The notes: generated by a model not told the origin, from the letters alone. A stretch of 64,000 bases of DNA from Bdellovibrionales bacterium (GCA_965261545.1 CBDHDF010000010.1:992001-1056000); one strand, 5' to 3'. Numbered from the stretch's first letter, positions 7,832 through 55,125 are shown. Translations and numbers: made by a program.

Positions 7832-7929
7832 TAGCTACATAATTAATTATAACCATAGCAACAGTCAGCTCGTTACTTCTATGTTGCAAATTAAGCCAAA
7901 CCACCCCAATTCCAATTAGGAGGAACATT

Positions 7930-8202: not shown

Positions 8203-9773
8203 GTAACTATTCAGGGGGTGGGCGAATTCGAGTCATAAATGAGGGAAGTTTTCCTTGAAATAGCATATTTAGAGCATCTTTAGGTTCTATGCCATTTTTC
8301 TGGCAAGTCAGGAGAAAGCTTCGGTTTCTACAAAATGTCTTGGCTCCCATCAACGAACGAAAGCACCCAGATATTTTCTGCTGAACTTTGGTCATTCTCA
8401 GATCATTTTCTGCTATATTATTCGTAAATGGAACTATGGGGTCCTTCATAAAGAGCAAGGTATCATCTTCAAAGTTTCTCAGTCGATCTAGTAAATTTCT
8501 AGATTTGGATTGTTTAACCTTTCCCTTCTTTTTTTTCTCTGTCCTCTCCATTAATGGAGATTCCTTTTCCCCTTCGAAGAGAATATTTCGATATTTCTCT
8601 TTGTAATATTCAATTCGGTCTTGTGAAAGGCATTGGTTCTGCGTATCGTGCACCTCTTTGTTTATTGTCTCTAAAAGAGACTTCATTTCTTTTGCCCATT
8701 TTTGATCATCTTGCTCCCAAGCTCTTTGAAGCTCCCTTAAATGGTGCGCATTGCAAAGGGCATGAATGCAGGAAGTATATGTATAATAAGGTTTCCAATG
8801 GTCATGACAAACAATCCCTGTGTATTTTGGAAGAATTCCCATGCGATCCATAGCCTCTGCGCCTCTTTTTTCGTCCACCTGATAGAGAACCACAGTATCA
8901 TTGGACAAGAGGTGAAACCACAGCCTCTTCCCATTAACATTCACTCCAGTTTCGTCAGCATGAATCAAAGGTGAGTTCAGAAGAGTTTCCTTTGCCCACT
9001 CCTCAAAAGCTTCCAGAGCCTCAAAGGCAGATTTGTTAAAATTGTGTACCGTAGATCCAGCAAGCGATAGACCCCATTGATTAAAGTAACTTGCGACTCG
9101 AAGATGAGGGATTAACTGAAACTGGGACATATAAACTGAGTGAGCTTTCACAGAAGGGCCATATTGAGTTGGGTTATTGATTCCTTCTGGAAAACCTGCA
9201 ACCCACTGATTCCCATCTTGGTCTTCGAGGATTTCTCCTTGATACTCCGTGACATGCACAGAAAGGTCTACCTCAAATACTTGACGCTTTTCAACTCCAG
9301 AAGAAATGTAATCACCTGGAGGAAGTTCCTCTTTATTAATAGAAATGAACTCCACCTTGTCTGGAGTATCCACGGGTTTTAAAGTAGCTCCTTCGTGTCC
9401 GGGTTGTCCTCCTGGCTTCTTACCAGTTTCTTCCTTAGGTTTCTTTTTAGGGCCATTCGGATCTTGAGAAGGGGCAATACTACTGTTTTGACTATTTAAT
9501 TTTTTTTGATTTACTAGAATAGTGATGATTTTGATCAACAACTCAATGGCCACAATAAAAGCGGGAGAAAGGGACTTCTCTTTCTTAAGAAGCTTCCCAT
9601 AGGTGTTCGTGGTTTTTTTCTAATTTTAATTCCGAATTAATGGAAATACTTTTCAAGCCTCCTTTTTTACATAGAGGGAAGTGGGCGATTTATAAATATT
9701 TATAGATGGTATTTTGAGAAATGGACGCAGATTGACATTTGATATCCACGACAAGCCATGTGTTTTAAGAGAC

Positions 9774-10237
9774 TTAATTGTGTAACGAAAGAACTGTGGA
9801 CTTTTGGGAACAACAGAATTTAAATTTCTTTCCACTTCCGCATGGACAGGATTGATTTCTTTCAATTTTTTCGCTTTGGTCATTTTTCTGCTGTGATGCC
9901 GACATATCTTCAGTTACAATTTTTTTTTCTTTTCATCTTCCAAATCCTCATCCAAATTATCAAAAAGAATATCTCCTAGATTCTGGTGAAAGTAACGATT
10001 TTTAAATTGAGATATGAGCATCATAAAAATACATGTAAGAACCAAAAGTGTGAGTGAAGCAAAAAACAAATAAGATGCTTGCATCTGAGTTAATGGGAGG
10101 ATGAGTGCCAGTAAATAACCAAATCCAAATACCAATAAGGAAATAAAAAGAGATATAAAGGATCCCAAAGAAAGTAATATTAAAAGTCCAAAAATCATTG
10201 CTATTTTTTGCTCCTGTCGAATACAATGAATCCGCAT
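9774..10237 (-). pseudogene. IS4 passenger membrane protein with SEC-C motif, frameshifted copy
   Basis: Nearly identical to intact 55309-55773 but one base shorter near 9925, with further substitutions in the SEC-C coding part. Confidence 0.75.
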
Positions 10238-10342
10238 AGATACAAGTGAGTTATCTACAGACTTAATGATTCTCGCGTTAGTATCTTAATAGGTCAAGAT
10301 TAATTGGAGGAAATTTTTATTTTTTAAACGCAGGGGGCAAAT

Positions 10343-11587
10343 ATGAGCACGGAAGCTCAAACACTTAAAACGATCAAAAAATGTTTCAAGAAAGTTATTC
10401 CTGAAAAGGACTCTCGGGCAACCATTCCACCTCTTGAGTTTATTGTGGCTCTTGTCTTGTCATTCCAGGGAGACTCTAAGACATATTCAATAGAGGGGAT
10501 TAGGAGGTTTATGATAAGTCATTTAGGGTTAAGAATTGAAAGACACAGCTTCTGGGAAAGACTCTCTAGAAAAAGATTAAAAAAGCTTCTGAGTAAACTG
10601 GTTGAAATGCTCATGATAAAGCTATCTCATGGAGCTTTTCATGGAAGCAAAGCCATATTATTACAACTGGGAGTCTCAGACGTTCTTCTTGTTGACTCAA
10701 GCACAATAAGCCTTTGGGATGGAGCATCTGAGAATTTTCCAGGGACAAGAACAAACGCAGGAATTAAATGGCACGCTTGTTTCAGTTTATTCAGTGGTAT
10801 AATGACTTGGTTCGAATTAACTCCGTCTTCCACTAACGATAGGAAGTGCTTTCCTGATATAAAGGAACTCGTTGGAAAATTAGTCATCTTTGATTTGGGA
10901 TATTGGGACTATGGCTTATTGTCATCTATTCATGAAGCTAAAGGATTTTTCTTGTCTAGAGTGAAGTCAAATGCCTCTATTCTTATTGATGCTGTTGTTG
11001 AAGGTTTGCCAGATTACTATGTTGGAAAAGAGTTCTCTGATATTAAACTCAAGAAAAAAAACGATGTTGTTGAATTTATAGGCAGTGTCTTGTCCAATGG
11101 TAAATGGGTAAGTTTGAGAATTGTAGGCTTCTGGAATTCCTCCGAAAAACGCTATCATTGGTATTGCACGAATTTAGATGTGGCAGCGGAGTCCATATAT
11201 CCAATTTATCGTTTACGTTGGCAATGTGAACTTATTTTCAAATCTTGTAAGAATTCTTTGAATGCAAATCAGATCACCTCAAACGATCAAAATATCATAG
11301 AGAGTCTTCTTCTTGCTTCATTAGCGGCTCACCTCACATCAAGTGTTGTTTTGAGGATAGGAAGAACTAAACTCAATAAGGAACAAAATGACTCCACATC
11401 GTTTCAAAGAGTTGCTAAGGTTACCGTCTTATTAGCCTCTGATTTTATCAAATATCTCCTAAGCTCATCTCAAAAGTATTTAAATATTTTGATAGAGAAG
11501 ATCAAGATATTCTCCCATGAAATTTATGACACAAACTACCGACGGCGAAAAACATCAATGAATATGGCTAAAAAGGTCTTGCTATGA
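10343..11587 (+). CDS. IS4-family DDE transposase
   Basis: LVDSSTISL, IFDLGY and YRLRWQCELIFK (YREK-like) motifs. Confidence 0.92.
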   Translation: MSTEAQTLKTIKKCFKKVIPEKDSRATIPPLEFIVALVLSFQGDSKTYSIEGIRRFMISHLGLRIERHSFWERLSRKRLKKLLSKLVEMLMIKLSHGAFHGSKAILLQLGVSDVLLVDSSTISLWDGASENFPGTRTNAGIKWHACFSLFSGIMTWFELTPSSTNDRKCFPDIKELVGKLVIFDLGYWDYGLLSSIHEAKGFFLSRVKSNASILIDAVVEGLPDYYVGKEFSDIKLKKKNDVVEFIGSVLSNGKWVSLRIVGFWNSSEKRYHWYCTNLDVAAESIYPIYRLRWQCELIFKSCKNSLNANQITSNDQNIIESLLLASLAAHLTSSVVLRIGRTKLNKEQNDSTSFQRVAKVTVLLASDFIKYLLSSSQKYLNILIEKIKIFSHEIYDTNYRRRKTSMNMAKKVLL

Positions 11588-13874
11588 AAGAATAAAAAAC
11601 CACGAACACCTATGAGAAGCTTCCTGATTTTATTTATGGCTGAAGACACGTCAATATTTTCTATTTTCATACTTACCTTATGAAAATATTAACATGCCTT
11701 TTTTTCATTAAAAAAAATGCACTAGGATTCGTTCTAAGAAGCAAAAGGAATGAGAAGTGCCCCCCGCGACCTATGTTTCACAATCTTTCAATACTATGGC
11801 TCTCAGAGAGTTTAAGGCATATGCAGGAACATATTCGATAAAGAACAAATGAAAGAGGTCGTTTGCTTCAAAAACTTGTCAAGAATTTTTATACTTTTTT
11901 TAAAAAAATTGTTCGAATTAATGCGGCACCCCCTGAATAGTTACTATGAATCTCCGGGGTAGTTTGGACGCACGAATCCACTATCCGTTCTTCGAATTTT
12001 TTCAAATGTCCGAGTTTTTAAATCATCCTACATTACATGAAATCATACTTTTTTAACGCTCTAATCCACCTTGGTGCATTTTTTTTCACCATGAGCTTTT
12101 CATAGTCAATTCCAGGGTCTTTGTAGGGGGTGTCATTACTTATGACTGAATAAACAACTCCCATCATTTTGTGACCAACGGCAATCACTGATCTCTTGTG
12201 CCCACGCCTTATAACAAGTGATTGGTATTTGCCTTTGAATTGTGAATTCGTCTTAATAGCACTATTGGCCATCTCACATACCAACGATTTCACATATGTG
12301 TTCGCTTTCCTCGTTCGTGAAGACTTTTTTTTCCTGCGCTCTCATTATTGGATGGGCAAATCCCCATCCAGGAGCAAAAATTTCCTTTATTTTTAAAAGA
12401 CTTCACATTGCCTCCTATTTCTGCAATCAAAAGCGCTGCACTTAATTCGTCAATTCCAGGTATAGTCTGGAGTAGATGCCACTGCCTTTCATAGGGTTTC
12501 ATACGAATGAAAAGTTCTTCTTCAATTTGAGAGCATTCTTTTTTCAAAAAATCTATTCGATCAAGAATGCGTTGAAGAACAAAACGATTTTCTTCCGTCA
12601 TCTTTCCCGACAGGGCGTAAGAAAATTCTTCGGTCTTTTGACGTAAAGACCCTCTGGCAAGAGACATCAATTTAGAAACTGATCTCTCTCCATTAGCTAG
12701 TTTCTGTCCAGAAAGGCCCATTTTTTGTTCTCTGACACTCCCCATTGAGCCTCCCAATGCCTCAATGGGGGAGTGAGAGTTGGAGATTTGCCACACAAAC
12801 TCTACAGATTAAGGGGAAAAAGGTCTTTAAGCGACTTGCGCCCTAGTTTTTTCGATTTGAAGACGCACCCCTACCTTTGGAAGATTTTAGCACCTTCGAC
12901 CTGGTCCATTGCTGTTATTCCTAATGGATAAATTTAGGTGACAGTTGATAATTCATGTCTTGCCAAGACAACAAAATTATAGGCACAAACGGCATTCTTT
13001 ACATACCTCTTAAAACCATCATGCCCTTTCCAGTAAGCAACTCTCATACCAAAACATCTCTTAAGGAATGAAATAACAGCCTCTATTCCGGCTCTCCAAT
13101 TGAGAAGATTTTTAAAGACCCAAGCACTTTTAACCATCTTTAATATTTTCATTCCTTTTTTTTCTGGGAAGCAAACATCTTTAGCCCCCATCTCTTTGGC
13201 CTCTTCAAGATTTTCTTTTGAAGCAAACCCACCATCTGCACTTACTTTTACAGGGCAAGCCCCATAGGTTTGTGTCACTGAATTCATAACTTTTAAAAAC
13301 ATATCAGAGTCTGCGGGGTTGCCATCAGGGATCTGACAATCTAAAATCATGTTGCTTTGCCCTGAGGTCAAAAAGATTTTATGCCCAAACTCGACTTCTC
13401 TTTGCCCCTTTACAATAATGTCTGTATGCGGTTCAAAGATGGATAGGACCTTTTTTTCAGAAGATACTTTTTTCCCCTCAATAACTCTTTTTTGAGTTTG
13501 AAAGATGATTTTTTCCAGGTAGAAGGCAACATTTTCTAACTGTTTTAGACTCTTTTTCAAAGCATTCATCTTCACACATTTTTGTTCTTTTTTTATCTTT
13601 CTGATGGTATCAGGTAATCCTTTGTTCAATTTGGTAGCGATTTTTAAAAGCTCCTTATAGCAAGGTAGTCTTTCCGCATCATTTTTGGAATTATTAATTT
13701 TGTAAAGCAAGGTTTTTGCTCTCTTAAGATCTTCTCTTGAAATAAGTCGCCAAAAATCTTTCATGACATTTTTACGAACTTTTTTAAATTCTCTTTCTGT
13801 AACTCTTATGCAGTCATATAAAAGCGATGCATCCGTTGGATGATGAATATTTGATCACTCATGTTGATACCCCC

Positions 13875-15920
13875 TTAGTAACGTAGCTTTTTAATTGATC
13901 CGGACTTAAGTTTTTTAAAGTCAGATATGGTTTTTTTCTTATCTGGAAAGAGATAAGCCTTTGTTTTCTCGTGTTTTTTGACAATGATCCTCCCTTGTTT
14001 AATATGGTGATAAATCCAATGAACTTTAACATCAATAAGTGCTGCAATTTGAGATGTTGTGAGGCTTCCCTCGACTTTGGTCGGAAAAGAGTGCTTTCGA
14101 TTCCGATAGATTTTATTGTTTAGTCTATAGGACTTCACAGTATTTCTGAGAAAAGTGGTATCCATTGGTGATCTGAATCCTTTTTGGGTCAATAGTTTGG
14201 CAATATCTTCATCAGACACCCCAAGCTTGACCTGATGCGCAATTATTTTCTTTATCGTTTCAGAAGATGACAGTTCATCAAAAGATCCAACTTTGATTGG
14301 AATGCTAGCTTCTGTTGTATCTCCTCCAATCCAAACAATTCTCAGTGCAACCATATCTCTTTTCTTTCTGTGAATGACAACCTTTTCAACCAATGTTCTA
14401 AGAATTTTCTTTTTCATGTCTTTGGTCAATATCTTATCCTCCCATAGCGAAGGTAGTTTTTGATTCAAATCTGAAAATTCTCTTTTCATTTTTTGAGAGA
14501 TCACAGTTGGAATACGCTGTTCATTCTTAACCCTCTCTAGGTGATCTTCGGCTTTTTTAAGTATTACTAAAGCCTCTTCCCATTGTGTTTCTAATTCATC
14601 TGCAACAAGTCTATTCTCAGGGTCTACTTTGCGATACCTCTTTTCTACCAGTTGAGCTTCATACCTTAAACGCTGAATTTGCTGAATGTGTGATTTGTAA
14701 ACCTCTTGGTCAATTTTTGACTTATTTTCTAAAGCCTTGGCATACAAGTCTAGCTCGACAGGGGAAAGAACCTTAAAAAAAGCGTTTACTACATAATCAT
14801 CGATTGGATCTGTAGGAATGAATTGGCAAGTAGGTTCCCGATGTTGTTGGCGTAGATAGTTGCATAAGTATCGAGTTGCTGTTTTATACTGCACTGACAT
14901 TTTGTGGCCACATTCTCCACAATAGACTATCCCATGTAAGAGGGCCTTACCAGGGCGAGGTATGCCTCTTGTTTTATTACGAGTATATTCAGTGTAGTTG
15001 TCTTTTAGAATTTCTTGTATCTTTAAGAATGTATTCCAATCGATATATTTAGGATATTTATCTTTCACAACAATTTTCCATTCATTAAGTGGAAGCTTTG
15101 TACGCTTAAGTTTTCCAGCTAAGTCTTTTCTACGGTATTCAGCTTTGCCATATACAAAAGTTCCGCTATAAGCTGGATTCTTCAAAATAGAAAGTATGGC
15201 TGCCTTGGATGTTTTTTTCCAATGAATACTTTTTACAAAATCAACTCTTGGAAGTAAGAGGTTGTTATCGTTAAAAAATCGCGACACCTTACCGGCTGAT
15301 TTCAGTTTTAAGAATATAGTAAATACTAAATTTATGCGATCTTGTAAATCTTTATTTGGATCTTTTAGCACTTTACCTTGTTCTGTTCGAATAAAACCAA
15401 CTGGTAATTTAAGAGCTAAATCTCCTCGCTTGGCTTTGTTGAGAAGACCTGCTGTTAATCTATTGCGTATCGTAAATAATTCCATTTCTGAGAGTTGACC
15501 TTTAAACCCGAGTAACATTCTTCCATTAACATTAGAAGGGTTATAAATAGACTCTCTATCAGCAATGAGGCAATTCTTAAAAGCACACAGATCAAGTAAT
15601 TGGTACCAGTCCGTACAGTTTCTAGATAGACGAGTGACATCGTACGATAGAATAATACCAATTTTTTCCAAGGTCACTTCTGCAAGGATATTCTTGAAGC
15701 CTTCTCTAAACTGTATACTACTTCCTGTGATCCCCAAATCATCATCGACAATTTCAATACTATCTTCTTGCCAACCTAATTCAGTAGCTCTTTGCCTGAG
15801 TGAGTATTGAAGGTCGAGACTTTCTTTGTTTTTGATGGCTTGCTGAGGGGTCGACTGTCTGATGTATATTATGGCTTTTCTCTTTAAGTGAATAGGTGTA
15901 ATCAATTCCGATGTTTTCAT
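13875..15920 (-). CDS. Large serine recombinase with Zn ribbon, coiled coil and C-terminal HTH-like extension (Y4bA-like)
   Basis: YIRQST catalytic motif, D.TRLSRN, LKNPAYSG, CGECG, VDPENRLVA.ELE..W. Start taken at MKTSELIT (15920). Confidence 0.92.
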   Translation of the reverse strand: MKTSELITPIHLKRKAIIYIRQSTPQQAIKNKESLDLQYSLRQRATELGWQEDSIEIVDDDLGITGSSIQFREGFKNILAEVTLEKIGIILSYDVTRLSRNCTDWYQLLDLCAFKNCLIADRESIYNPSNVNGRMLLGFKGQLSEMELFTIRNRLTAGLLNKAKRGDLALKLPVGFIRTEQGKVLKDPNKDLQDRINLVFTIFLKLKSAGKVSRFFNDNNLLLPRVDFVKSIHWKKTSKAAILSILKNPAYSGTFVYGKAEYRRKDLAGKLKRTKLPLNEWKIVVKDKYPKYIDWNTFLKIQEILKDNYTEYTRNKTRGIPRPGKALLHGIVYCGECGHKMSVQYKTATRYLCNYLRQQHREPTCQFIPTDPIDDYVVNAFFKVLSPVELDLYAKALENKSKIDQEVYKSHIQQIQRLRYEAQLVEKRYRKVDPENRLVADELETQWEEALVILKKAEDHLERVKNEQRIPTVISQKMKREFSDLNQKLPSLWEDKILTKDMKKKILRTLVEKVVIHRKKRDMVALRIVWIGGDTTEASIPIKVGSFDELSSSETIKKIIAHQVKLGVSDEDIAKLLTQKGFRSPMDTTFLRNTVKSYRLNNKIYRNRKHSFPTKVEGSLTTSQIAALIDVKVHWIYHHIKQGRIIVKKHEKTKAYLFPDKKKTISDFKKLKSGSIKKLRY

Positions 15921-16017
15921 ATATAATCTCCTCAATGGCTAAAGTTAAGTCTTTGATGACTTGCTTTTGAATTTCTTTTGGCAGTCTTGGCCAGACATCT
16001 TTTGGTGTAATTGACAT
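15781..16017 (-). CDS. Small hypothetical protein of LSR element A
   Basis: VWPRLPKEIQKQVI helical ORF overlapping the recombinase start. Resembles small ORFs that often precede such recombinases. Confidence 0.45.
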   Translation of the reverse strand: MSITPKDVWPRLPKEIQKQVIKDLTLAIEEIIYENIGIDYTYSLKEKSHNIHQTVDPSASHQKQRKSRPSILTQAKSY

Positions 16018-16211
16018 AGTTGCTCTTCCAGTTGTTGAGTCAGTGAAATTAGCTCCTGAATTGCAACTATACCAAGTTTGCTTGGGGCCTGCCTATCGTA
16101 GAGATTGGGGTTCAGATTGGTAGAAGCCAATGGTATGCGTAGCGTCATGTGGTTCTTGTATTGAACAAAAGCAAAAGTAGATTTTTTCTGATTTTTAGGT
16201 ATGGAAATCAC
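15945..16211 (-). CDS. Small hypothetical protein of LSR element A (Y4bD-like)
   Basis: First ORF of the element, with a LRIPLASTNL motif. Confidence 0.5.
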   Translation of the reverse strand: MISIPKNQKKSTFAFVQYKNHMTLRIPLASTNLNPNLYDRQAPSKLGIVAIQELISLTQQLEEQLCQLHQKMSGQDCQKKFKSKSSKT

Positions 16212-18148
16212 CTTGAATGACTTCCTATAAAGGGGATGGGAGGGGTCCGTGACCCTTAGCTCTCTAAAACCTCTGTCGTTGACGGGGGTATTAAGTAATG
16301 GACTCGTTTGATTTCGTCACTGTACTGTCCAATCTCATTTTCTTACACGGCTCAATCTTTTGATCTCTTGCATCTGAAACTAAAGAGGCGCTAATAATTC
16401 CCCAAGTTTCTTCACTTATTTGAACAATCAAGTCCTGTAAGGTGGAGTGAGCGTAATTTTCTTCCAATTCAAGGCCCAGAAAAGCTCTGGTGGATACTGA
16501 ATCGACAAGATTAAAGGCTAACGCACGATAGGAAAGACCTCTTATGGATTTAAGAATAGCCACCTTGAGAACTTGCTCCGATGTCATACCAATATCACCA
16601 GAATCTTTCTTTTCTTTAACAAGGTCTTCATGAACCATATGGGCAAACTCTGGATGGCGATCAATGATGTTATTAATTTGCTGCAATTCTGTACTGAGTT
16701 GGTGGTTAGGATATTGGGAAAAGAGTCCCAACTGTGTCTTCTTCAAATGGCGCATAGTCCCCCCTTTGGTGAAAGTTTCTCTTTAATTTTTATATTAACA
16801 TACGTTTTTTTGAGGGAAAAAAGTGAGCAAGGATGTCTTTTAAGAAGAAAAAAATCAGAGAGGTTCTCGGAGAACATGGATAAGAATTCTACCTCATAGA
16901 GAGGTTCCCACGCCTCCTAAAACCTACATAAAAAATAAATGAAGAATAAAATATCAAAAATTATTTCTCTGAAAAAACACGTCAAGTATTTTTTGAAGTT
17001 GATGCGCAACGTAATGTTATTTCCCTGAAGGAGGTTTGAAATCACCACGGTGGAAACACAGGTTGATCCAACTCTTCCTCTCATATCAAGTAACCAGTTG
17101 ATAGCCACATAAGTCACTGAAAGGGAGGGGCTGTGAAAGGTTCGTCAAGAGAGGGGGGGGAACTTATTTTATTTTTCCGTTTTATGTAAGTAACTGAATT
17201 TACACGGATTATGTTTGATGGACTCCATTTTAAAGCATAAAATCTAAAGGGAAGGCATGTAAATACTTAAAACTACTTAACTTTCTTCCCTGGACAGGAA
17301 CTAGCTATGGCACGAATCATGGCCATACCAGATACGCAGTCAGCTTTAGACATTGCATAGGTTAAACGAATGCCTGAATATTCAAGAACCTTATACATAC
17401 GATTTTGTTCCGAAGATATTTGGCGGATCGTTTTTGTACGATAACGAGCCAAAAGTCTAATAGAACGAATCTCACGTGGAGGAATGAAGCTAGCTCTTAG
17501 AAGACCACAAGCACCAAGCTCTGCAATCCACTGGCTATCCAACACGTCAGTTTTTTTACCAGTAATATTTTTGACATGAAAGGCATTGATAACATCTACT
17601 TCATAACCTTTTTCTGTCAAATCATCGTATAAAGAATTCCAATAAATCCCTGTGCTCTCAAAAAGAACTCTCTCAACCTTATGTGGCTTCATCCAAGAGC
17701 GCATTCTAGGAAAATTTTTTGGAAAATTCTTGAACTCTTTTGTGAAAAACTTCTTCTTACCGTCTTCCACTTTGACAATCGTACACATCAACATATGTTG
17801 ATGAACATCTATTCCACAAACAGAACTATAAATAATATCCACATGACTCCTCCTTTCTGTTAGAAAAAAAGAAGGTGATAAAACTAGAGCCTTGGGATTT
17901 TGCCATAAATTCTAAAGCGAAAATAGGTCAACTTACTATGAATCTCCGGGGTAGTTTGGACGCACGAATCCACTATCCGTTCTTCGAATTTTTTCAAATG
18001 TCCGAGTTTTTAAATCATCCTACATTACATGAAATCATACTTTTTTAACGCTCTAATCCACCTTGGTGCATTTTTTTTCACCATGAGCTTTTCATAGTCA
18101 ATTCCAGGGTCTTTGTAGGGGGTGTCATTACTTATGACTGTAAAATTG

Positions 18149-20058
18149 GTTACGGTAGGAATGCGTGTTGCCACGCACCCCCCGCACAGATCCGGACGTG
18201 CTCGTTAAAGCATCCGGCTCCTACTTCAGGTGGTACCGCATAGCGAACCTATCTGTTGGCCACGGGTGGCGTATGGATATACGAGGCCAGAATAGACGAA
18301 TCATTCTATCCAACCTCTTCCACGAGAATCTCCGTCCACGCTGTGAGCGTCGTCGGATGGCTTTCATCCAAGCACTCCTGATTGCGCAAATAAATTTTCG
18401 TAGGTACACCGTACTTCCTGGAACCGCAAAATAATTGAGCCAGCCTTTGATGACCAAACCCAACCACTTTGCACATTCCGCTAGGTCCCTCGTGTAGACT
18501 CGTTTTCTCAGACTCAGCTTCAGGTGCTGTAAGGTCCGGCAGACTCTCTTGGATATGGGTTTACGCCCTATCCTAAAGCCTCCTTTCCTCGTGCGCACAC
18601 AAAAGTGAGTGAATCCTAAGAAATCAAAAGTCTCGGAGTGACCAAGACCTCGTCGGCGGCAATTTGCATTTGCAAATCGACCGAACTCTATGAGGCGAGT
18701 TTTCCCCGGATGTATTTCTAGAGAAAACTCCTTAAGCCTGCGCTTCAGATCATTGAGGAAGCGTTCAGCTTCCCCCTTGTATTGAAAGCCTACGACAAAG
18801 TCATCGGCGTAGCGAACAAATATCATGTCCCCTGTGGCATGGTCCTTGCGCCATTTCTGCATCCATAAATCCAACACATAATGTAAATATATGTTGGCGA
18901 AGATAGGGGAAATATTTGAACCTTGAACGGTCCCTCTCCCTGTGTCTTCTAAGACGCCTTGAGATAGCACTCCGCACTTGAGCCACTTTTCAAAGAGACG
19001 AATGAGTCTCTCATCTCCGATGAGGTGTTTTAGAAAGCGAATTAGAGTCTTTCTATCCACGCTATCGAAGTAGGATTTTATATCCGCATCCAATATGTAG
19101 CTGATCTTCCTACGCTCTATTCCGTAAGCCAGAGCATCCAACGCATTATGCGCTCCACGCCCTGGACGGAATCCGTAGCTATAACCGAGGAAATGTTCCT
19201 CGTAGATGGGAGAGAGGATGCTGTCTACAACGGCCTTCTGGACAATCTTGTCCTCCAAGGCCAGGACACCCAAGGGTCTTGTGCCCCCGTCTGACTTGGG
19301 TATTTCTACCCGCAAGACAGGTTGCCCTTTGTAAGCACCCGTGTGGACCCGACGATGTAAATCGAACAGGTTTTGCACGAGGTTCTCGCCATACTCCTTC
19401 CATGTTAAATGGTCCACTCCCGCACTGGCTCCCCTATTCAAATAGAGGTAAGCCAAGTGGAGGGCTTCCACAGATACATGGTGAAGCAAGCAAGTGAGCT
19501 TACCATCCTTTCTCTTTGCTGCTATACGGACTCGCTCCGTCGCCTGTGACACCTTTTCCCAACTCTGTGTTCGGCAGATGCTTTGACGGATTGAGTTCCC
19601 TTCAGTTCCACCCCTTCGCTCCAAGGACTCCGCTGGGCTTGTAGGCCCTTTGTTCGTCCTCTTCATCGCTACTATGAGTGGATCCGATTTCTTTATTTCG
19701 TTCATGGGTTACGGTTACCTCCTTTCCCATGTCGCCCGTCGCACATGACGGGGTTAAATAAAGACCTCCCGAGGTCCCGAGATAAGATTCATGTATGTGC
19801 CAGTTTCTACGACGCCGTGGAGTCACCCACCAACTCACCATAGCGCTGGTGGGTATGTTGCGTTCGGCTACCATGACAGCCTCCGCACTCCAGAGTTCGG
19901 CATTTTCGACGCTCAATTATTTGGCCCACACACACCCCTACCGATACATCGCTTCGGCCTCACGGCCGACAGCGCACGGCTTGGGGAGAGAAGTGGTCGG
20001 TTGACCTTCCTCTCGGGGGACTCTAACCCCCTATCTTATCTCAGTTCGCCCGGCGAAC
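18149..20058 (-). mobile_element. Group II intron, copy 1 (1910 nt, intact)
   Basis: RT/maturase ORF. Domain V GAGCCGGATGC...GCACGTCCGGATC and domain VI ending CCTACCGTAAC. 5' end GTTCG. Confidence 0.95.
18221..19705 (-). CDS. ltrA: Group II intron reverse transcriptase/maturase, no endonuclease domain
   Basis: RPLG, SYGFRPGR, DADI..YFD, QGS.ISP, YADD, FDFLGF, GWLNYF. Ends HPWP..RF. Confidence 0.95.
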   Translation of the reverse strand: MNEIKKSDPLIVAMKRTNKGPTSPAESLERRGGTEGNSIRQSICRTQSWEKVSQATERVRIAAKRKDGKLTCLLHHVSVEALHLAYLYLNRGASAGVDHLTWKEYGENLVQNLFDLHRRVHTGAYKGQPVLRVEIPKSDGGTRPLGVLALEDKIVQKAVVDSILSPIYEEHFLGYSYGFRPGRGAHNALDALAYGIERRKISYILDADIKSYFDSVDRKTLIRFLKHLIGDERLIRLFEKWLKCGVLSQGVLEDTGRGTVQGSNISPIFANIYLHYVLDLWMQKWRKDHATGDMIFVRYADDFVVGFQYKGEAERFLNDLKRRLKEFSLEIHPGKTRLIEFGRFANANCRRRGLGHSETFDFLGFTHFCVRTRKGGFRIGRKPISKRVCRTLQHLKLSLRKRVYTRDLAECAKWLGLVIKGWLNYFAVPGSTVYLRKFICAIRSAWMKAIRRRSQRGRRFSWKRLDRMIRLFWPRISIRHPWPTDRFAMRYHLK

Positions 20059-23233: not shown

Positions 23234-25035
23234 ATCGAACAGGTTTTGCACGAGGTTCTCGCCATACTCCTTCCATGTTAAATGGTCCACTCCCGCACTG
23301 GCTCCCCTATTCAAATAGAGGTAAGCCAAGTGGAGGGCTTCCACAGATACATGGTGAAGCAAGCAAGTGAGCTTACCATCCTTTCTCTTTGCTGCTATAC
23401 GGACTCGCTCCGTCGCCTGTGACACCTTTTCCCAACTCTGTGTTCGGCAGATGCTTTGACGGATTGAGTTCCCTTCAGTTCCACCCCTTCGCTCCAAGGA
23501 CTCCGCTGGGCTTGTAGGCCCTTTGTTCGTCCTCTTCATCGCTACTATGAGTGGATCCGATTTCTTTATTTCGTTCATGGGTTACGGTTACCTCCTTTCC
23601 CATGTCGCCCGTCGCACATGACGGGGTTAAATAAAGACCTCCCGAGGTCCCGGGATAAGATTCATGTATGTGCCAGTTTCTACGACGCCGTGGAGTCACC
23701 CACCAACTCACCATAGCGCTGGTGGGTATGTTGCGTTCGGCTACCATGACAGCCTCCGCACTCCAGAGTTCGGCATTTTCGACGCTCAATTATTTGGCCC
23801 ACACACACCCCTACCGATACATCGCTTCGGCCTCACGGCCGACAGCGCACGGCTTGGGGAGAGAAGTGGTCGGTTGACCTTCCTCTCGGGGGACTCTAAC
23901 CCCCTATCTTATCTCAGTTCGCCCGGCGAACCATGGCATTGCCCGCACTGATTGGCATGACTGATTCCCCTTAGCATAGCGTCATTGATGTTCTATAAAG
24001 ACCTCCAATCTTTAACCAAGGAGGTCGAAATGAGAACAAAGATGGATCATGAGCGTTACACAAAAATAAAATCATTAATAAAGGCAAATATTCCCGACCG
24101 AGAAATCAGTCGCCGCATGAAATGCTGCACCAAGACTCTTAGAAAGATAAGACGTGGTCTTTTAACAGACCCCAAGGATTGGAAGACCCAAAGAGAAATT
24201 CCCCCTTGGTCTTACGGTATAGATTGGAAGATTATTGAGAAGGAGATTGAGGATAGGCATTGTTTAAGTGACGTTTGGGAGGAAAAATTTCTGAAGGTCA
24301 TTAGCTACCCCCAGTTTACGAGGGAGTTTCATAAGCAATTTCCAAAAGCTGGCAAAAGGATTATTACCTTGCGTGATTTTCAGCCAGGCCACCAAGTTGA
24401 GGTTGATTACGCAGGATTTCAGCCAGAGTGGATCGATGAAGACCTTAATATTCATAAGGCCCATATATTTTGCTCAAATCTATGTTTCTCTCAGCGTATT
24501 TTTGCTTATGGCTCTTTGAGCGAATCTAGTGAAGATTTTCTTCACGCTCACGTTCTGATGTTTGAATATTACGGTGGGGTTCCGAGAGTGGTTGTTCCTG
24601 ATAATTTAAAGACTGGAGTGAACACACCCCATTTGTATGATCCAGAGTTGAATAAATCCTACCAAGAGCTTTTGGAACACTATGACACGGTGGCTGTTCC
24701 CGCTCGAGTTCGTCGTCCCCAGGATAAAAGCCTTACTGAGAATGCCGTGAAGCTCGTTACAAGGGCCCTCAGGTTTATGTACAGACGAGAGACCTTCACC
24801 AGTCTGGATCAAATTAATAAGGCTTTAAGGGAGGTGTGCGAGAAGATAAATGCTCGCCCTCACACAAGATTTAAGGTCTCTCGCAATGAAAAATTTCAAC
24901 GAGAGGTAAAAACTTTAAAACCCTTGCCTTCTTTTCCCTACCGGTGGGGACGTTGGGAGAAGAAAAAACTCCACCAAGACTGTCATGTGAGCGTTGAATC
25001 CAACTTCTACTCGGCTCCGTTTCAGCACCGAGGGG

Positions 25036-25085
25036 TGTTAGGCGCCAATTAAAATTGGCCATTTTTAGAAGCCGTCGCCAATGAA
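25036..25085 (+). mobile_element. Orphan terminal fragment of a second, probably IS21-like, element
   Basis: TGTTAGGCGCCAATTAAAATTGGCC...GTCGCCAATGAAAA: starts TG, has an internally repeated CGCCAAT.AAAA motif, and matches neither flanking element. Confidence 0.5.
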
Positions 25086-26129
25086 AAACGGCGTACATTA
25101 AACTTTTTTCTCATTTTATCAACAATATCTGAAAGCGTCTTGCCTTCAAAAGTATTACCAGGGAAAACCTCAAAACCTAAAGGGATGCCATCCCGATTCA
25201 CCAACAAACCAAAGACAACTTGGGTGCAGTCTGATCGTCTCTCTTTACTATAGCCAAATTGACGAAGTTTCCCTAAGTCTGTTCTTGTACTCTCGAAGCG
25301 TAAGGTTGTTAAATCATACAACACAATGTCTACTTGGAAATTAAATAAATCTCGCCCCACCCAATAAAGCGAGTTCTCTATTTCATCCTTATGGGAGGCA
25401 AGTAAGTCCATAGACCGATAAATATGCTGGAGACTCAAATCACCCTTAATCATGTCTGGGTAAAAAGATTTTTGCCAATACTCAAAAACCTTTAACTTGG
25501 AACTAGGAGCAATAAATCGGCTGGCAACTAAGGTAAAAATCACCTTACATAAATCAAATTGAACTTTCTCATGAGAATCTTTTATGTCTTTGAGGGTCTT
25601 ATTGATACCCAGTTGATCAAACAACTTTTGTAAAATCAGCAAGGGACCCAAAATGAAAGTCTCTTCGATGTAAAGCTCCTTAGCCAATTGACTCACAGTG
25701 AGAAGCTCTCGGTGGCGGGATACGGCCTGCGCCAAACTATTAATCTTATCCTCTCCTCCTTCCAGCGCGTCATGCGAGCCTTGCGCACTGATAAAACTGC
25801 GCCAAACTATTAATCTTATCCTCTCCTCCTTCTCCAGCCTTACCTAAGGACATGAGCATGCGTTTTTTGGATTTGCCTTTTTCTCTGTAGGACTCCACAA
25901 GGTGGTAGTAGCACTGACCTTTTGAGTTTTTAGTCGTTTGGATGTACATGAGGATATTTTCTACATATTTCTATGATATATCAATATTTAAAACGATAAA
26001 ATCCTATTTTGTTTTCTACACTTTTTTTACGTCAATTTTAATTTTTCCAGCAGCTACCATTATATTTCAGTACAACCCCAATTTCTGGAAATTTCGCATT
26101 TTAACGCAGATGCTGCTGTCAAACTCGGG
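25086..26129 (-). mobile_element. Truncated IS1634 (left end and 5' part of transposase)
   Basis: Near-identical to 54050-55021, including the TIR. Breaks at ...KFNVRRF and carries a 70-bp insertion. Confidence 0.9.
25727..25832. repeat. 36-bp direct repeat flanking a 34-bp unrelated insert (repeat-spacer-repeat geometry)
   Basis: CTGCGCCAAACTATTAATCTTATCCTCTCCTCCTTC at 25727-25762 and 25797-25832. Single copy and no insert in the sister element (54347-54382). Confidence 0.92.
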
Positions 26130-26601
26130 ATTTACTTTCAAAAACAGCTCCTCGCTCGCCACAAGAGGACCAAAGGTAAACTCGGAGAGTACATCACCAA
26201 AAACGAACACCTCCCGGAGCCCAGTCGCGCCTACAAGGAGGCCACTCCCCAGAACATTCTTATTCAAGCAAGTATGATTTGTAAAGAGCTTGAAAACTTC
26301 ATTGAGGAGCTTTTTCAGGGTGGGACCATTGAAAATCTCAGAAGAGCTATGGGCTTTGTAAGCTCCTGTCACAAAGAAATCCAGAAAGAGGGCAAGGAAA
26401 AGTCCCTTCCTCTCATTATCAAAGCCCTTGAGGACTGCAAGCAGTGGGAGAAAAGGAGGGTTAGATATTTTCAGCAACAACTCCATTTCTATAAAGGGCA
26501 AAAAATAAAAAAGGTGAACGAGAAAATAGATCGTAAACAAGGCAACCCTTATTTGCGACATAACGAAAATCCAAATAACCAAAGCCCCAAGGAGGTGCCA
26601 G

Positions 26602-27354
26602 ATGGATGAAGTACAAATCAAAAACCACATGCATGAGTTGAAGCTCTATGGAATGTTAGACAGCCTTGAAGTGGCGCTGGATAACACAAGCCACAAGACT
26701 CAAGCATTGGATCTATTGAACGAGCTGTTATTTGCAGAAGTGGAGGCTCGGAAAATCCAATTCAGCCAAAGACTTCTCAAGACCTCAAAGCTGCCTCACA
26801 AGGTCAGAGGTGAGGCATTTGACCACCATGCCAAAAGGTCTATTAGTAAAAGAGAGGTGGATAGGCTTCAAACTTTATCATGGGTTAAGGAGCAAAGGTC
26901 TATCATTGTCGAAGGGCCAACGGGGGTGGGTAAAACCTTCTTGGCCCAGAGCCTGGGACACCAGTGTTGTCAATCCAGAATCTCCACACTGTTTATAGAC
27001 ATCAACATATTTCTAGAAACCTTGGCCCTGGAAAGGCACTCAGGAAGGTATTTGAACTACTTGCGTCGTCTGGGCCGCCCCCAAGTGTTAATTTTTGATG
27101 ACTTTGGATTAAGGAAGTTCTCCCAAAGTGAATCCACAGACTTCTGCGATATTTTAAAGTTTCGTTCCGATAGGTCCACCGTTATTACCACTCAACTGCC
27201 AATAACGCATTGGTCAGAAATTATTGATGATGAGGTGCTGGCAGATACTATCATCGACCGTTTGAAGCATACCGCCATAAAAATTTTACTTAAAGGAGAG
27301 AGTTATCGAAAAATCCAGGGAACAAAACTTGACCAGGACTTTTCCCTAAAATAG
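26602..27354 (+). CDS. istB: IS21 helper ATPase IstB
   Basis: GPTGVGKT Walker A, LIFDDFG Walker B, ADTIIDRL, GESYRK. Confidence 0.93.
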   Translation: MDEVQIKNHMHELKLYGMLDSLEVALDNTSHKTQALDLLNELLFAEVEARKIQFSQRLLKTSKLPHKVRGEAFDHHAKRSISKREVDRLQTLSWVKEQRSIIVEGPTGVGKTFLAQSLGHQCCQSRISTLFIDINIFLETLALERHSGRYLNYLRRLGRPQVLIFDDFGLRKFSQSESTDFCDILKFRSDRSTVITTQLPITHWSEIIDDEVLADTIIDRLKHTAIKILLKGESYRKIQGTKLDQDFSLK

Positions 27355-28609
27355 GAAGAAATAGGATTACAAATTAACTAAAATTTTCCCCAGAAATGGG
27401 AAGGAAAATCATCAATGACGCATTGAAATAGGGAAAGTGAGGGTAATGGGTGCAACCAGTGCGGGCAATACGCGCAATTGTACACTTATGACTGAATAAA
27501 CAACTCCCATCATTTTGTGACCAACGGCAATCACTGATCTCTTGTGCCCACGCCTTATAACAAGTGATTGGTATTTGCCTTTGAATTGTGAATTCGTCTT
27601 AATAGCACTATTGGCCATCTCACATACCAACGATTTCACATATGTGTTCGCTTTCCTCGTTCGTGAAGACTTTTTTTTTCCTGCGCTCTCATTATTGGAT
27701 GGGCAAATCCCCATCCAGGAGCAAAAATTTCCTTTATTTTTAAAAGACTTCACATTGCCTCCTATTTCTGCAATCAAAAGCGCTGCACTTAATTCGTCAA
27801 TTCCAGGTATAGTCTGGAGTAGATGCCACTGCCTTTCATAGGGTTTCATACGAATGAAAAGTTCTTCTTCAATTTGAGAGCATTCTTTTTTCAAAAAATC
27901 TATTCGATCAAGAATGCGTTGAAGAACAAAACGATTTTCTTCCGTCATCTTTCCCGACAGGGCGTAAGAAAATTCTTCGGTCTTTTGACGTAAAGACCCT
28001 CTGGCAAGAGACATCAATTTAGAAACTGATCTCTCTCCATTAGCTATGGCACGAATCATGGCCATACCAGATACGCAGTCAGCTTTAGACATTGCATAGG
28101 TTAAACGAATGCCTGAATATTCAAGAACCTTATACATACGATTTTGTTCCGAAGATATTTGGCGGATCGTTTTTGTACGATAACGAGCCAAAAGTCTAAT
28201 AGAACGAATCTCACGTGGAGGAATGAAGCTAGCTCTTAGAAGACCACAAGCACCAAGCTCTGCAATCCACTGGCTATCCAACACGTCAGTTTTTTTACCA
28301 GTAATATTTTTGACATGAAAGGCATTGATAACATCTACTTCATAACCTTTTTCTGTCAAATCATCGTATAAAGAATTCCAATAAATCCCTGTGCTCTCAA
28401 AAAGAACTCTCTCAACCTTATGTGGCTTCATCCAAGAGCGCATTCTAGGAAAATTTTTTGGAAAATTCTTGAACTCTTTTGTGAAAAACTTCTTCTTACC
28501 GTCTTCCACTTTGACAATCGTACACATCAACATATGTTGATGAACATCTATTCCACAAACAGAACTATAAATAATATCCACATGACTCCTCCTTTCTGTT
28601 AGAAAAAAA

Positions 28610-53964: not shown

Positions 53965-55125
53965 GGGTGCACCCTCCTCTTCCTTTTAATTGAAGCTCAA
54001 TGCTTAAAGTTATACTCTCCGTAGTGATTGATTTTTTGTGAAACTAAATCCCGAGTTTGACAGCAGCATCTGCGTTAAAATGCGAAATTTCCAGAAATTG
54101 GGGTTGTACTGAAATATAATGGTAGCTGCTGGAAAAATTAAAATTGACGCAAAAAAAGTGTAGAAAACAAAATAGGATTTTATCGTTTTAAATATTGATA
54201 TATCATAGAAATATGTAGAAAATATCCTCATGTACATCCAAACGACTAAAAACTCAAAAGGTCAGTGCTACTACCACCTTGTGGAGTCCTACAGAGAAAA
54301 AGGCAAATCCAAAAAACGCATGCTCATGTCCTTAGGTAAGGCTGGAGAAGGAGGAGAGGATAAGATTAATAGTTTGGCGCAGGCCGTATCCCGCCACCGA
54401 GAGCTTCTCACTGTGAGTCAATTGGCTAAGGAGCTTTACATCGAAGAGACTTTCATTTTGGGTCCCTTGCTGATTTTACAAAAGTTGTTTGATCAACTGG
54501 GTATCAATAAGACCCTCAAAGACATAAAAGATTCTCATGAGAAAGTTCAATTTGATTTATGTAAGGTGATTTTTACCTTAGTTGCCAGCCGATTTATTGC
54601 TCCTAGTTCCAAGTTAAAGGTTTTTGAGTATTGGCAAAAATCTTTTTACCCAGACATGATTAAGGGTGATTTGAGTCTCCAGCATATTTATCGGTCTATG
54701 GACTTACTTGCCTCCCATAAGGATGAAATAGAGAACTCGCTTTATTGGGTGGGGCGAGATTTATTTAATTTCCAAGTAGACATTGTGTTGTATGATTTAA
54801 CAACCTTACGCTTCGAGAGTACAAGAACAGACTTAGGGAAACTTCGTCAATTTGGCTATAGTAAAGAGAGACGATCAGACTGCACCCAAGTTGTCTTTGG
54901 TTTGTTGGTGAATCGGGATGGCATCCCTTTAGGTTTTGAGGTTTTCCCTGGTAATACTTTTGAAGGCAAGACGCTTTCAGATATTGTTGATAAAATGAGA
55001 AAAAAGTTTAATGTACGCCGTCATAGGTGTTCGTGGTTTTTTTCTAATTTTAATTCCGAATTAATGGAAATACTTTTCAAGCCTCCTTTTTTACATAGAG
55101 GGAAGTGGGCGATTTATAAATATTT

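What the first reader, a model, noticed from the sequence alone, without database searches (positions are those of the whole stretch)
25727..25832. Repeat-spacer-repeat scar resembling off-target Cas1-Cas2 spacer integration (nascent CRISPR unit)
Seen: in the truncated IS1634, exactly 36 bp of transposase coding sequence is duplicated around a 34-bp insert CAGCGCGTCATGCGAGCCTTGCGCACTGATAAAA (19/34 GC, higher than its surroundings; I saw no source in the window). The sister copy at 54347-54382 has one copy and no insert, so the event is derived. Known: Cas1-Cas2 duplicates a repeat-length target when inserting a roughly 30-38-bp spacer, and ectopic integrations have been shown experimentally; 36/34 fits common repeat/spacer sizes. 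Inference: a natural neo-CRISPR event with its pre-insertion allele preserved in the same genome. No cas genes are in this window.
Basis: partly seen in the sequence, partly recalled or inferred. Interest (0 to 1): 0.8.

Follow-up and report, generated by a model that had tools for sequence, protein, structure and literature searches.

The report
Lone spacer-like insertion in a transposon
One dead copy of a multi-copy transposon carries a 34-base foreign snippet flanked by an exact 36-base duplication, most likely a CRISPR memory pasted at the wrong address, although the transposon family itself also makes duplications of this length.

Summary
Window 25727-25762 and 25797-25832 are identical 36-mers around a 34-bp insert. 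35 other copies of the same IS1634-family element carry one 36-mer and no insert. The closest copy is 975/975 identical apart from these 70 bp.

The genome has a CRISPR adaptation module on another contig: a type I-C locus with cas4, cas1 and cas2 ORFs essentially full-length (cas1 and cas2 each have an IS at the 3' end) and interference genes broken by IS insertions. Its array has 37-nt repeats and 33-36-nt spacers. A second array has 36-nt repeats and 36-41-nt spacers. So 36+34 fits native sizes. Like all 13 native spacers, the insert has no source in the genome or the phage collection.

Against this reading:
- The scar is the only one in 4.3 Mb.
- The target resembles no repeat or leader.
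- The resident IS1634 element itself makes exact target duplications of 35-407 bp.

That rival is weakened because the insert holds no IS sequence and the site lacks the IS's A|TSD|T signature on one side.

Verdict: ectopic Cas1-Cas2 integration at about 0.55. This is a known kind of event, here a single inert unit and not a working CRISPR locus.

The parts
25727..25762 (.). Left copy of the duplicated 36-bp target (transposase coding sequence of the IS1634-family element)
   Evidence: exact 36-nt direct repeat D1.
25763..25796 (.). 34-bp insert, unique in the genome, 56% G+C, spacer-sized
   Evidence: one occurrence only, and no k-mer of 10-11 nt at IS-like copy number; no source in the public collections searched; not templated from nearby sequence.
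25797..25832 (.). Right copy of the duplicated 36-bp target
25086..26130 (-). Scar-bearing copy of the IS1634-family element: its first 975 bp plus the 70-bp insertion; transposase ORF truncated and frameshifted
25036..25092 (.). 57-bp terminal piece of a third, high-copy IS abutting the truncation point of the IS1634 fragment
   Evidence: 48-64 copies; 73 short hits.
23932..25038 (+). 5' part of the IS21-family element (istA) in which the IS1634 fragment sits
   Evidence: Intact copies have 34-37 bp more between this part and the 3' part.
26129..27484 (+). 3' part of the same IS21-family element (end of istA, then istB)
54347..54382 (-). The same 36-mer, single and without insert, in the sister copy (window 54049-55021, itself interrupted by another IS at 55021/55022)

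Best explanation
This is a one-off ectopic ('non-canonical') spacer integration by the genome's own CRISPR adaptation complex.

Inferred mechanism: Cas1-Cas2, here part of a type I-C cas4-cas1-cas2 module, bound a processed 34-bp prespacer of foreign origin. Its two 3'-OH ends attacked opposite strands of a non-CRISPR target 36 bp apart, inside an already dead IS1634-family copy. Gap repair then duplicated the 36 bp on either side of the insert.

What is shown:
- the anatomy, an exact 36-bp duplication around 34 unique bp;
- that it is derived, because 35 pre-insertion alleles exist;
- the presence of essentially full-length cas4, cas1 and cas2 ORFs (cas1 and cas2 each with an IS inserted at the 3' end);
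- native repeat lengths of 36 and 37 nt and native spacers of 33-41 nt.

The enzyme responsible and the order of the strand transfers are inferred.

The product is inert. The duplicated 36-mer has no hairpin or crRNA handle, the interference genes of the only cas1-linked locus are broken, and the only visible effect is a frameshift in a transposase gene that was already truncated.
For: Geometry. The duplication is 36 bp and the insert 34 bp. Array A has ten identical 36-nt repeats. Array B, next to the only cas1, has six identical 37-nt repeats with spacers of 36, 35, 34, 33 and 35 nt and periods of 70-73; the scar's period is 70. The two native repeats share their ends (5' AT[TC]TCC, 3' ATTGAA[AG]C) and a hairpin, so spacings of 36 and 37 bp are both native to this genome.

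Enzymes. There is one Cas1 hit (306 bits) and two Cas2 hits. NCBIfam types the locus as I-C: cas3, cas5c, cas8c and cas7 fragments, cas4, cas1c at 408.8 bits against a cut-off of 385, and cas2. Cas1 aligns over residues 12-358 of 367 to a solved Cas1 (PDB 8d3p, deposited as 'CRISPR-associated endonuclease Cas1'), E = 3.8e-70. I read the conserved E, H and D/E positions from that alignment; their role is recalled.

The insert behaves like a native spacer. It is unique in the genome. No 10- or 11-mer of it occurs more than 9 and 4 times respectively, so it holds no end of any multi-copy IS. Its 56% G+C lies inside the 20-58% range of the 13 native spacers, none of which has a source in the genome or the phage collection either. 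It is not templated from the flanks (best local score 12 against a shuffle mean of 10.6).

One-step event. The copies are otherwise 975/975 identical.

Scans. In a genome-wide scan for exact repeats of 26-45 bp separated by 24-50 non-periodic bp, 17 rows remained of 103. Thirteen are the CRISPR arrays, one is the scar, and three have other sizes: 33/45 in a Gly-rich coding repeat, 29/25 and 29/26.

The main rival fits the site poorly. IS1634 insertions in this genome have A just 5' of the duplicated stretch in 16 of 16 cases and T just 3' of it in 15 of 16. The scar site has C and T.

Precedent. Off-target integration by Cas1-Cas2 with repeat-length spacing is in print: 30-31 bp for a 30-bp repeat (passages of PMC6698737), and Nivala et al. 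2018 as cited in passages of PMC7054753 and bioRxiv 10.1101/148544.
Against: - It is a single event. No second scar of this geometry turned up in 4.3 Mb, either with exact repeats, with up to 3 mismatches in 34, or by comparing all repeat copies with each other.
- The target shares at most 9 of 36 positions with either repeat in any orientation, below the mean of 11.8 for random genomic 36-mers. By eye, its flanks do not resemble either leader (output).
- The array beside the only cas1 has 37-nt repeats, not 36. The 36-nt array has spacers of 36-41 nt, not 34, and no cas1 of its own.
- No protospacer was found, so there is no PAM and no orientation.
- The cas locus is decayed. IS elements sit in cas8c/cas7, at the 3' end of cas1 (the last ~9 codons are IS-derived) and at the 3' end of cas2, so activity at the time of the event is unproven.
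- The resident IS1634 element makes exact target duplications of 35, 38, 51, 55, 62 ... 407 bp, so the 36-bp duplication alone does not point to Cas1-Cas2.
- The scar has not been confirmed in raw reads.
Confidence: 0.55

Rival explanations
1. By-product of the IS1634-family transposase. The element's own enzyme, which makes long staggered target cuts, produced the 36-bp duplication. The 34 bp are then either what is left of an inserted element after near-complete loss, or short non-IS DNA captured in an aberrant strand transfer.
For: 16 of 25 full-length copies have exact target duplications of 35-407 bp, including 35 and 38 bp. One copy is inserted in another copy with a 246-bp duplication, so the element does hit its own kind. 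The family is known for direct repeats of 8-514 bp with no mechanistic model (passage in section 14 of PMC2266710). The element is very active here, with 37 copies that are 99.7-100% identical in the stretches compared.
Against: The insert contains none of the element's 27-bp terminal inverted repeat and no k-mer of 10 nt or more shared with any multi-copy sequence. Its local alignment to the full IS scores 9 against a shuffle mean of 9.4. The site has C where 16 of 16 genuine insertions have A. No other 'long duplication plus short unique filler' exists among copies with pre-insertion alleles; the other such events carry multi-copy inserts with 25, 288 and 111 genome hits, or no insert at all. 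The reading needs two events or an unprecedented activity, and the spacer-like size of 34 bp would be a coincidence.
Confidence: 0.15
2. Break repair or replication template switching. A 36-bp tandem duplication formed with 34 bp of filler DNA at the junction, without any site-specific integrase.
For: Duplications without filler do occur in this genome's IS copies: a 56-bp tandem duplication at C7:390930 has 59 unduplicated alleles. Nothing in the target resembles a CRISPR repeat.
Against: The filler is not templated from the surrounding 4.4 kb, from the IS, or from anywhere in the assembly. There are no microhomologies beyond chance 5-6-mers (read). The match of both lengths to native CRISPR sizes would be a coincidence. 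The scans found no other filler-bearing duplication.
Confidence: 0.13
3. Assembly or sequencing artefact. The 70 bp do not exist in the organism's DNA.
For: The genome is a draft of 11 contigs, 96.8% complete with 3.7% contamination. It is extremely repeat-rich, and the scar could not be confirmed in reads.
Against: Collapse or mis-joining of IS copies cannot create 34 bases that occur nowhere else, flanked by a perfect duplication. I recognise no adapter or barcode in the 34-mer (recalled, not tested). The rest of the copy is error-free against its nearest relative, 975/975.
Confidence: 0.07
4. A 34-bp miniature mobile element or IS remnant with a long target duplication.
For: The first 28 bp have weak terminal inverted symmetry (CAGCGCG ... 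CGCACTG, 6 of 7; read).
Against: It is single-copy in the genome. It is absent from viral, genome and metagenome contig collections, tested with the whole 34-mer in the viral collection and with 20-24-mers in all three. Phage and plasmid records give only chance matches of E >= 0.4.
Confidence: 0.03

Closest known systems
Non-canonical (off-target) spacer integration by Cas1-Cas2 giving 'neo-CRISPR' units (Nivala, Shipman and Church 2018, E. coli type I-E). The paper is not held and is known here only through citing passages.
   Same: A repeat-length duplication of a non-CRISPR target around one spacer-length insert, in a genome that encodes Cas1-Cas2. The event sits at a site where it does no harm.
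   Different: This is a natural event, not one from over-expression. The system is type I-C with Cas4, and its interference genes are broken. There is only one event. No repeat-like or leader-like motif is seen at the site. The citing passages say IHF-site-like motifs favour such events in E. coli and mention only 'circumstantial evidence' in two other species.
Off-target full-site integration by Pyrococcus furiosus Cas1-Cas2 in vitro (PMC6698737; abstract and passages read)
   Same: Paired strand transfers on opposite strands at repeat-length spacing. The spacing there was 30-31 bp for a 30-bp repeat, which shows a tolerance of one base like the 36 versus 37 seen here.
   Different: The preferred off-target sites there share bases with the repeat (43% identity in the best-studied site) and G/C at the borders. 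The target here shares at most 9 of 36 positions with either repeat.
Long, variable-length target duplications of IS1634/IS1549 (passage of PMC2266710)
   Same: The host element belongs to this family. In this genome it makes exact duplications of 35-407 bp, which brackets 36 bp.
   Different: A genuine insertion has the 1915-bp IS between the duplicated copies and an A|TSD|T site. Here the copies flank 34 unrelated bases and the site is C|..|T.
Earlier notes of this scan on 'duplication-insert-duplication' scars in other genomes (AI notes, unchecked)
   Same: The same geometry: 36-37-bp duplications around inserts of 34-38 bp, several of them in dead transposons.
   Different: Those notes report about a dozen to more than two hundred scars per genome. 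This genome has one.

Membership tests
Ectopic Cas1-Cas2 spacer integration | Genome encodes Cas1 and Cas2 | tested here: met
   one cas1 (type I-C, 408.8 bits against a cut-off of 385), two cas2 and a cas4, on contig C11. None lies in the window.
Ectopic Cas1-Cas2 spacer integration | Target duplication equals the native repeat length | tested here: met
   The duplication is 36 bp. Native repeats are 36 nt (array A, 10 copies) and 37 nt (array B, 6 copies, beside cas1). It is one base short of the cas1-linked array.
Ectopic Cas1-Cas2 spacer integration | Insert length within the native spacer range | tested here: met
   34 bp against array B's 33-36 nt (5 spacers). It is outside array A's 36-41 nt (8 spacers).
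Ectopic Cas1-Cas2 spacer integration | Derived state: a pre-insertion allele lacks both the insert and the second repeat copy | tested here: met
   35 alleles; the nearest copy is 975/975 identical otherwise.
Ectopic Cas1-Cas2 spacer integration | Insert traceable to a protospacer with the system's PAM | tested here: inconclusive
   No source was found. The 13 native spacers also have none in the genome or the phage collection.
Ectopic Cas1-Cas2 spacer integration | Target or flanks share motifs with the repeat or leader | tested here: not met
   At most 9 of 36 identities against a null mean of 11.8; 96.7% of random genomic 36-mers do as well or better.
Ectopic Cas1-Cas2 spacer integration | Recurrence: several scars of the same geometry in the genome | tested here: not met
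   The scar is the only such structure outside the arrays.
Functional (nascent) CRISPR array | Repeat with a hairpin and crRNA handle that the Cas endoribonuclease can process | tested here: not met
   Predicted fold is 0.0 kcal/mol on both strands of the 36-mer, against -13.7 and -17.4 for the native repeats. It has no ATTGAA[AG]C tail.
Functional (nascent) CRISPR array | Intact interference module to use the spacer | tested here: not met
   cas8c and cas7 are reduced to fragments by two IS insertions.
IS1634-family target-site duplication | Duplication length within the element's observed range | tested here: met
   The range is 35-407 bp in 16 of 25 full copies.
IS1634-family target-site duplication | The IS, or a recognisable remnant of its ends, lies between the duplicated copies | tested here: not met
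   No IS-derived k-mer of 10 nt or more occurs in the 34-mer, and its alignment to the IS scores at chance.
IS1634-family target-site duplication | Target signature A just 5' and T just 3' of the duplicated stretch | tested here: not met
   16 of 16 insertions have A and 15 of 16 have T. The scar site has C and T, so it fits one of two half-sites.
Miniature mobile element | Multiple copies, each with its own target duplication | tested here: not met
   One copy in the genome and none in the collections searched.

The most novel reading that the evidence does not exclude
The DDE transposase of the resident IS1634-family element, which makes 35-407-bp staggered target cuts by an unknown mechanism, inserted a short foreign DNA fragment in place of its own element. 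That would be a transposase acting like a spacer integrase. It would give a natural handle on how this family produces its long variable duplications.
Probability: 0.07. Interest if true: 0.65.

Novelty: new member of a known kind. Interest (0 to 1): 0.38.

Why it matters
If the Cas1-Cas2 reading is right, this is a clean natural example of off-target spacer integration, with the pre-insertion allele kept 35 times in the same genome. It would come from a type I-C adaptation module whose interference partner has already been destroyed by insertion sequences. That would mean the memory-writing half of a CRISPR system can go on writing, at wrong addresses, after the system has stopped defending.

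It also carries a caution for scans of this kind. In genomes with IS1634-family elements, a repeat-length duplication is not by itself a Cas1-Cas2 signature, because the transposon makes duplications of the same size.

The event has no visible consequence for the cell: it lies in a dead transposon fragment.

Tried and rejected
Reads.
- The look-up of sequencing runs gave 5 runs from 2 studies holding 0.83-0.85 of the sampled words.
- Logan contigs of 4 of them (X1, X2, X3, X5; 2 studies) were laid on window 25300-26300. In each run one contig of 1.8-1.9 kb covers the element and joins 25726 to 25797, skipping the 70 bp. No contig covers the insert.
- That contig is the collapsed consensus of about 37 copies, and contigs drop rare variants, so this neither confirms nor denies the scar.

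Source of the 34-mer.
- Exact scans found nothing. I scanned the whole 34-mer in viral contigs, bases 1-24 and 12-34 in genome contigs and metagenome contigs, and three 20-mers in viral contigs.
- blastn against phage and plasmid records gave only chance matches of 17-26 nt, with E between 0.4 and 4.
- In the genome itself the best non-self hit from blastn-short is 12 nt. The exact k-mer scan also finds one 14-mer shared with C7:548662, which does not extend into the flanks.

Relatives.
- 0 of 40 related genomes hold the IS region.
- 0 of 200 genomes of the order hold repeat B with up to 3 mismatches.
- So there is no comparative dating and no larger sample of spacer lengths.

Other candidate 'duplication plus filler' events (C7:187566, C2:649141, C6:56082, C2:602426, C6:276670, C2:876160) were examined.
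- C7:187566 is a diverged tandem repeat.
- C2:649141 and C6:56082 have a repeat-gap-repeat layout (134-bp copies at 97.8% identity, and 696-bp exact copies with a 57-bp gap) but no pre-insertion allele elsewhere in the genome. Their nature was not resolved, and their sizes are unlike CRISPR units.
- C2:602426, C6:276670 and C2:876160 carry multi-copy inserts.

Considered and dropped:
- Tandem duplication of a 70-bp ancestral unit: the insert matches the flanks at 8 of 34 and 4 of 34 positions.
- Hairpin-type (palindromic) excision footprints: the insert ends are not the reverse complement of the duplicated ends (read).
- An excision remnant made of IS ends, a mechanism recalled from Tn10: no IS ends are present in the insert.

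Nivala et al. 2018 could not be read, so its details are taken only from citing papers. The organism was not identified taxonomically.

Full report
THE OBSERVATION

Reading the window and the repeat finder both show two identical 36-mers, at 25727-25762 and 25797-25832, with start-to-start spacing of 70. Between them lie 34 bases (25763-25796) with 19 of 34 G+C. The bases next to the two copies differ on both sides, so the duplication cannot be longer than 36 bp.

The 36-mer occurs 38 times in the 4.3-Mb genome that holds the window (G000, contig C10). That is once in each of 36 other copies of one repeated element, including the sister copy at window 54347-54382, and twice only here. An all-against-all comparison of the genome's repeats finds 35 copies that serve as pre-insertion alleles for exactly this event: 36-bp overlap in the reference allele, 34-bp gap in the scarred one. 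The nearest copy (C10:1072236-1073210) is identical at 975 of 975 positions apart from the 70 bp. The event is real in the assembly, it is derived, and it is recent.

THE HOST ELEMENT

The repeated element is a 1915-bp insertion sequence with 27-bp terminal inverted repeats and one 553-aa ORF. The ORF matches the IS1634-family transposase model NF033559 at 383 bits against a cut-off of 100. There are 25 full-length copies and many fragments.

The scarred copy keeps only the first 975 bp (window 25086-26130, minus strand). It is followed by a 57-bp end of a third IS, and the whole piece sits inside an IS21-family element that lacks 34-37 bp at that point. The 70 bp fall in the transposase ORF and shift its frame. 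The gene was already truncated, so the insertion costs nothing.

THE CRISPR SIDE

The window has no cas genes, but contig C11 has.

- A Pfam Cas1 search of the whole genome gives one match (306 bits). Cas2 gives two.
- NCBIfam typing of the surrounding ORFs gives a type I-C locus: cas3, cas5c, a 186-aa start of cas8c, a 184-aa end of cas7, cas4, cas1c (408.8 bits, cut-off 385) and cas2.
- Four IS insertions lie in it: two between the cas8c and cas7 fragments, one at the very end of cas1 and one at the end of cas2.
- Interference is therefore dead, while the three adaptation ORFs remain essentially full-length. Cas1 aligns over residues 12-358 of 367 to a solved Cas1 (PDB 8d3p, deposited simply as 'CRISPR-associated endonuclease Cas1'), E = 3.8e-70, and keeps the conserved acidic and histidine positions visible in that alignment. 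The catalytic role of those positions is recalled.
- About 180 unique bases after the last IS comes array B: six identical 37-nt repeats with spacers of 36, 35, 34, 33 and 35 nt.
- About 49 kb away is array A: ten identical 36-nt repeats in two blocks, spacers of 36-41 nt, with only a cas2 beside it.
- The two repeats share their first six and last eight positions almost exactly and both fold into a hairpin with a 3' tail.

The genome's native repeat lengths are 36 and 37 nt and its spacers run from 33 to 41 nt. The scar's 36+34, period 70, falls inside these ranges. Its period equals the shortest period of array B.

THE INSERT BEHAVES LIKE A SPACER

- It occurs once in the genome. The best other blastn-short match is 12 nt, and one exact 14-mer is shared with C7:548662 without extending into the flanks.
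- No 10-mer of it occurs more than 9 times and no 11-mer more than 4 times, so it contains no end of any of the genome's many high-copy elements.
- It is not copied from the neighbouring 4.4 kb or from the IS; local alignment scores are at the level of shuffled controls.
- No source was found in viral, genome or metagenome contig collections or in phage and plasmid records.

That absence means little, because the 13 native spacers were put through the same test. None has a match in the genome beyond chance. Array B finds nothing in the phage collection and array A only E >= 0.2 matches. Native spacers span 20-58% G+C, and the insert has 56%.

WHAT SPEAKS AGAINST A CAS1-CAS2 ORIGIN

First, the target does not look like a repeat. 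In any orientation and with either end anchored, it shares at most 9 of 36 positions with repeat A or B. That is less than the average random genomic 36-mer (11.8), and 96.7% of random 36-mers do as well or better. By eye its flanks do not resemble either leader. In the P. furiosus in vitro work, preferred off-target sites do share bases with the repeat.

Second, the event is alone. I ran four scans.
- Exact repeats of 26-45 bp with 24-50 bp between them: 103 candidates. 17 remained after periodic sequence was removed, of which 13 are CRISPR, 1 is the scar and 3 have other sizes.
- Exact repeats of 28 bp or more up to 1.2 kb apart: 23 isolated pairs.
- At least 31 of 34 matches at periods of 60-85: 199 candidates. 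Those printed, other than the scar and an array A fragment, are by inspection coding or tandem repeats.
- Comparison of all repeat copies with each other: 95 event keys.

None found a second unit of this kind.

Third, the array next to the only cas1 has 37-nt repeats. The duplication is one base short of that, although a one-base tolerance is documented for another system (30-31 bp for a 30-bp repeat).

The IS1634 family is known for long, variable target duplications: 8-514 bp for IS1549 and IS1634, with no mechanistic model (passage of PMC2266710). I measured them for the resident element.
- 16 of 25 full-length copies have exact flanking duplications of 35, 38, 51, 55, 62, 108, 123, 143, 173, 188, 217, 225, 239, 246, 320 and 407 bp.
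- One copy has 6 bp and eight have none detectable.
- One copy sits inside another copy of the same element with a 246-bp duplication.

So an enzyme able to cut a target about 36 bp apart is abundantly active in this genome, on this very kind of target.

Two results weaken this rival.
- What lies between the duplicated copies is not the IS, nor any trace of its ends. A second event or an unknown activity has to be assumed, and the spacer-like size of 34 bp becomes a coincidence.
- Genuine insertions carry a site signature. The base just 5' of the duplicated stretch is A in 16 of 16 cases and the base just 3' is T in 15 of 16. Alternatively, the duplicated stretch itself begins with A and ends with T, if the terminal T and A of the element are counted as target. 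The scar site has C and T, so it fits at most one of two half-sites.

The other 'duplication plus insert' events with pre-insertion alleles carry multi-copy inserts such as MITEs and IS fragments with 25, 288 and 111 genome hits, or no insert at all (a 56-bp tandem duplication).

WEIGHING

One enzyme complex explains all three features in a single step: the duplication length, the insert length, and a unique, foreign-looking insert. The transposase explains only the duplication. Break repair with filler DNA explains neither length.

An artefact is unlikely to invent 34 novel bases between perfect duplicates, but it could not be excluded with reads. The public runs are held only as contigs in which the 37 copies collapse into one unscarred consensus.

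My estimates are about 0.55 for ectopic Cas1-Cas2 integration, 0.15 for a transposase by-product, 0.13 for repair with filler, 0.07 for an artefact and 0.03 for a mini-element, with the rest unassigned.

WHAT IT IS NOT

It is not a working or 'nascent' CRISPR locus. The duplicated 36-mer has no predicted structure (0.0 kcal/mol on either strand, against -13.7 and -17.4 for the native repeats) and no handle-like tail. There is one spacer only, and the linked interference genes are broken.

COMPARISON WITH WHAT IS KNOWN

Off-target integration by Cas1-Cas2 that duplicates a repeat-length stretch of non-CRISPR DNA is in print for E. coli type I-E. I know Nivala et al. 2018 only through citing passages, one of which mentions circumstantial natural evidence in two other species. 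It is also in print for P. furiosus in vitro.

Earlier notes of this scan list 77 similar findings in at least 48 genomes, several with about a dozen to hundreds of scars. These are unchecked AI notes and I use them as context only.

This case is therefore a new member of a known kind, and a weaker one than multi-scar genomes because it stands alone. Two things are particular to it. The pre-insertion allele is preserved 35 times. And the setting is a type I-C locus whose adaptation ORFs outlasted its interference genes, in a genome whose IS1634 element mimics the duplication length.

LIMITS

- There is no read-level confirmation.
- There is no protospacer, so no PAM and no orientation.
- The activity of the IS-flanked cas1 and cas2 is inferred from intact ORFs only.
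- No close relatives exist among the genomes searched (0 of 40 with the IS, 0 of 200 with repeat B).
- The organism was not identified.

Noticed in passing
G000 contigs; reference copy L016 = G000:C6:191610-193524; window copies at 25086-26130 and 54049-55021: The resident IS1634-family element makes exact target duplications of 35-407 bp (16 of 25 full copies). Its sites show a strict signature: A just 5' of the duplicated stretch in 16 of 16 cases and T just 3' of it in 15 of 16. The literature passage read says no mechanistic model exists for this family's long duplications, so the signature may be useful.
   Followed up: partly
G000:C7:316462-319596: One IS1634 copy is inserted into another copy of itself with a 246-bp target duplication.
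   Followed up: partly
L004 (G000:C11:786000-805500), coordinates 4847-18431: The type I-C cas locus is hit by four different IS insertions: two inside cas8c/cas7, one at the end of cas1 and one at the end of cas2. The cas4, cas1 and cas2 ORFs and a 6-repeat array survive.
   Followed up: yes
G000:C11:752146-752255 and 754681-755235: A second CRISPR array (36-nt repeats, 10 copies) is split in two by about 2.4 kb. Only a cas2 and transposase genes lie next to it, with no cas1.
   Followed up: partly
G000:C7:390930: A 56-bp tandem duplication without any filler lies in one copy of a high-copy IS, with 59 unduplicated alleles elsewhere. Its cause is unknown.
   Followed up: partly
window 55126-55228 (G000:C10:1047125-1047226) and five other loci: A 100-bp mini-element with an 11-bp target duplication is carried inside 6 copies of the IS that starts at window 55022; 24 copies lack it. 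A separate 244-bp MITE with 8-9-bp duplications is also present.
   Followed up: partly
window 23932-27484: This is a mosaic: an IS21-family element, the 57-bp end of a third IS, then the 975-bp IS1634 fragment. The IS21 lacks 34-37 bp at the junction, so a deletion followed the insertions.
   Followed up: partly
whole genome G000: The insertion-sequence load is extreme. Several families are present at 65-125 near-identical copies, for example the two elements inside cas8c. There are also many 75-bp-period coding repeats.
   Followed up: no
L004:14067-15437 (+): A 456-aa ORF lies inside the 17-copy element inserted between cas1 and cas2. It has no NCBIfam match at E <= 0.001 and may be a transposase of an undescribed kind.
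   Followed up: no
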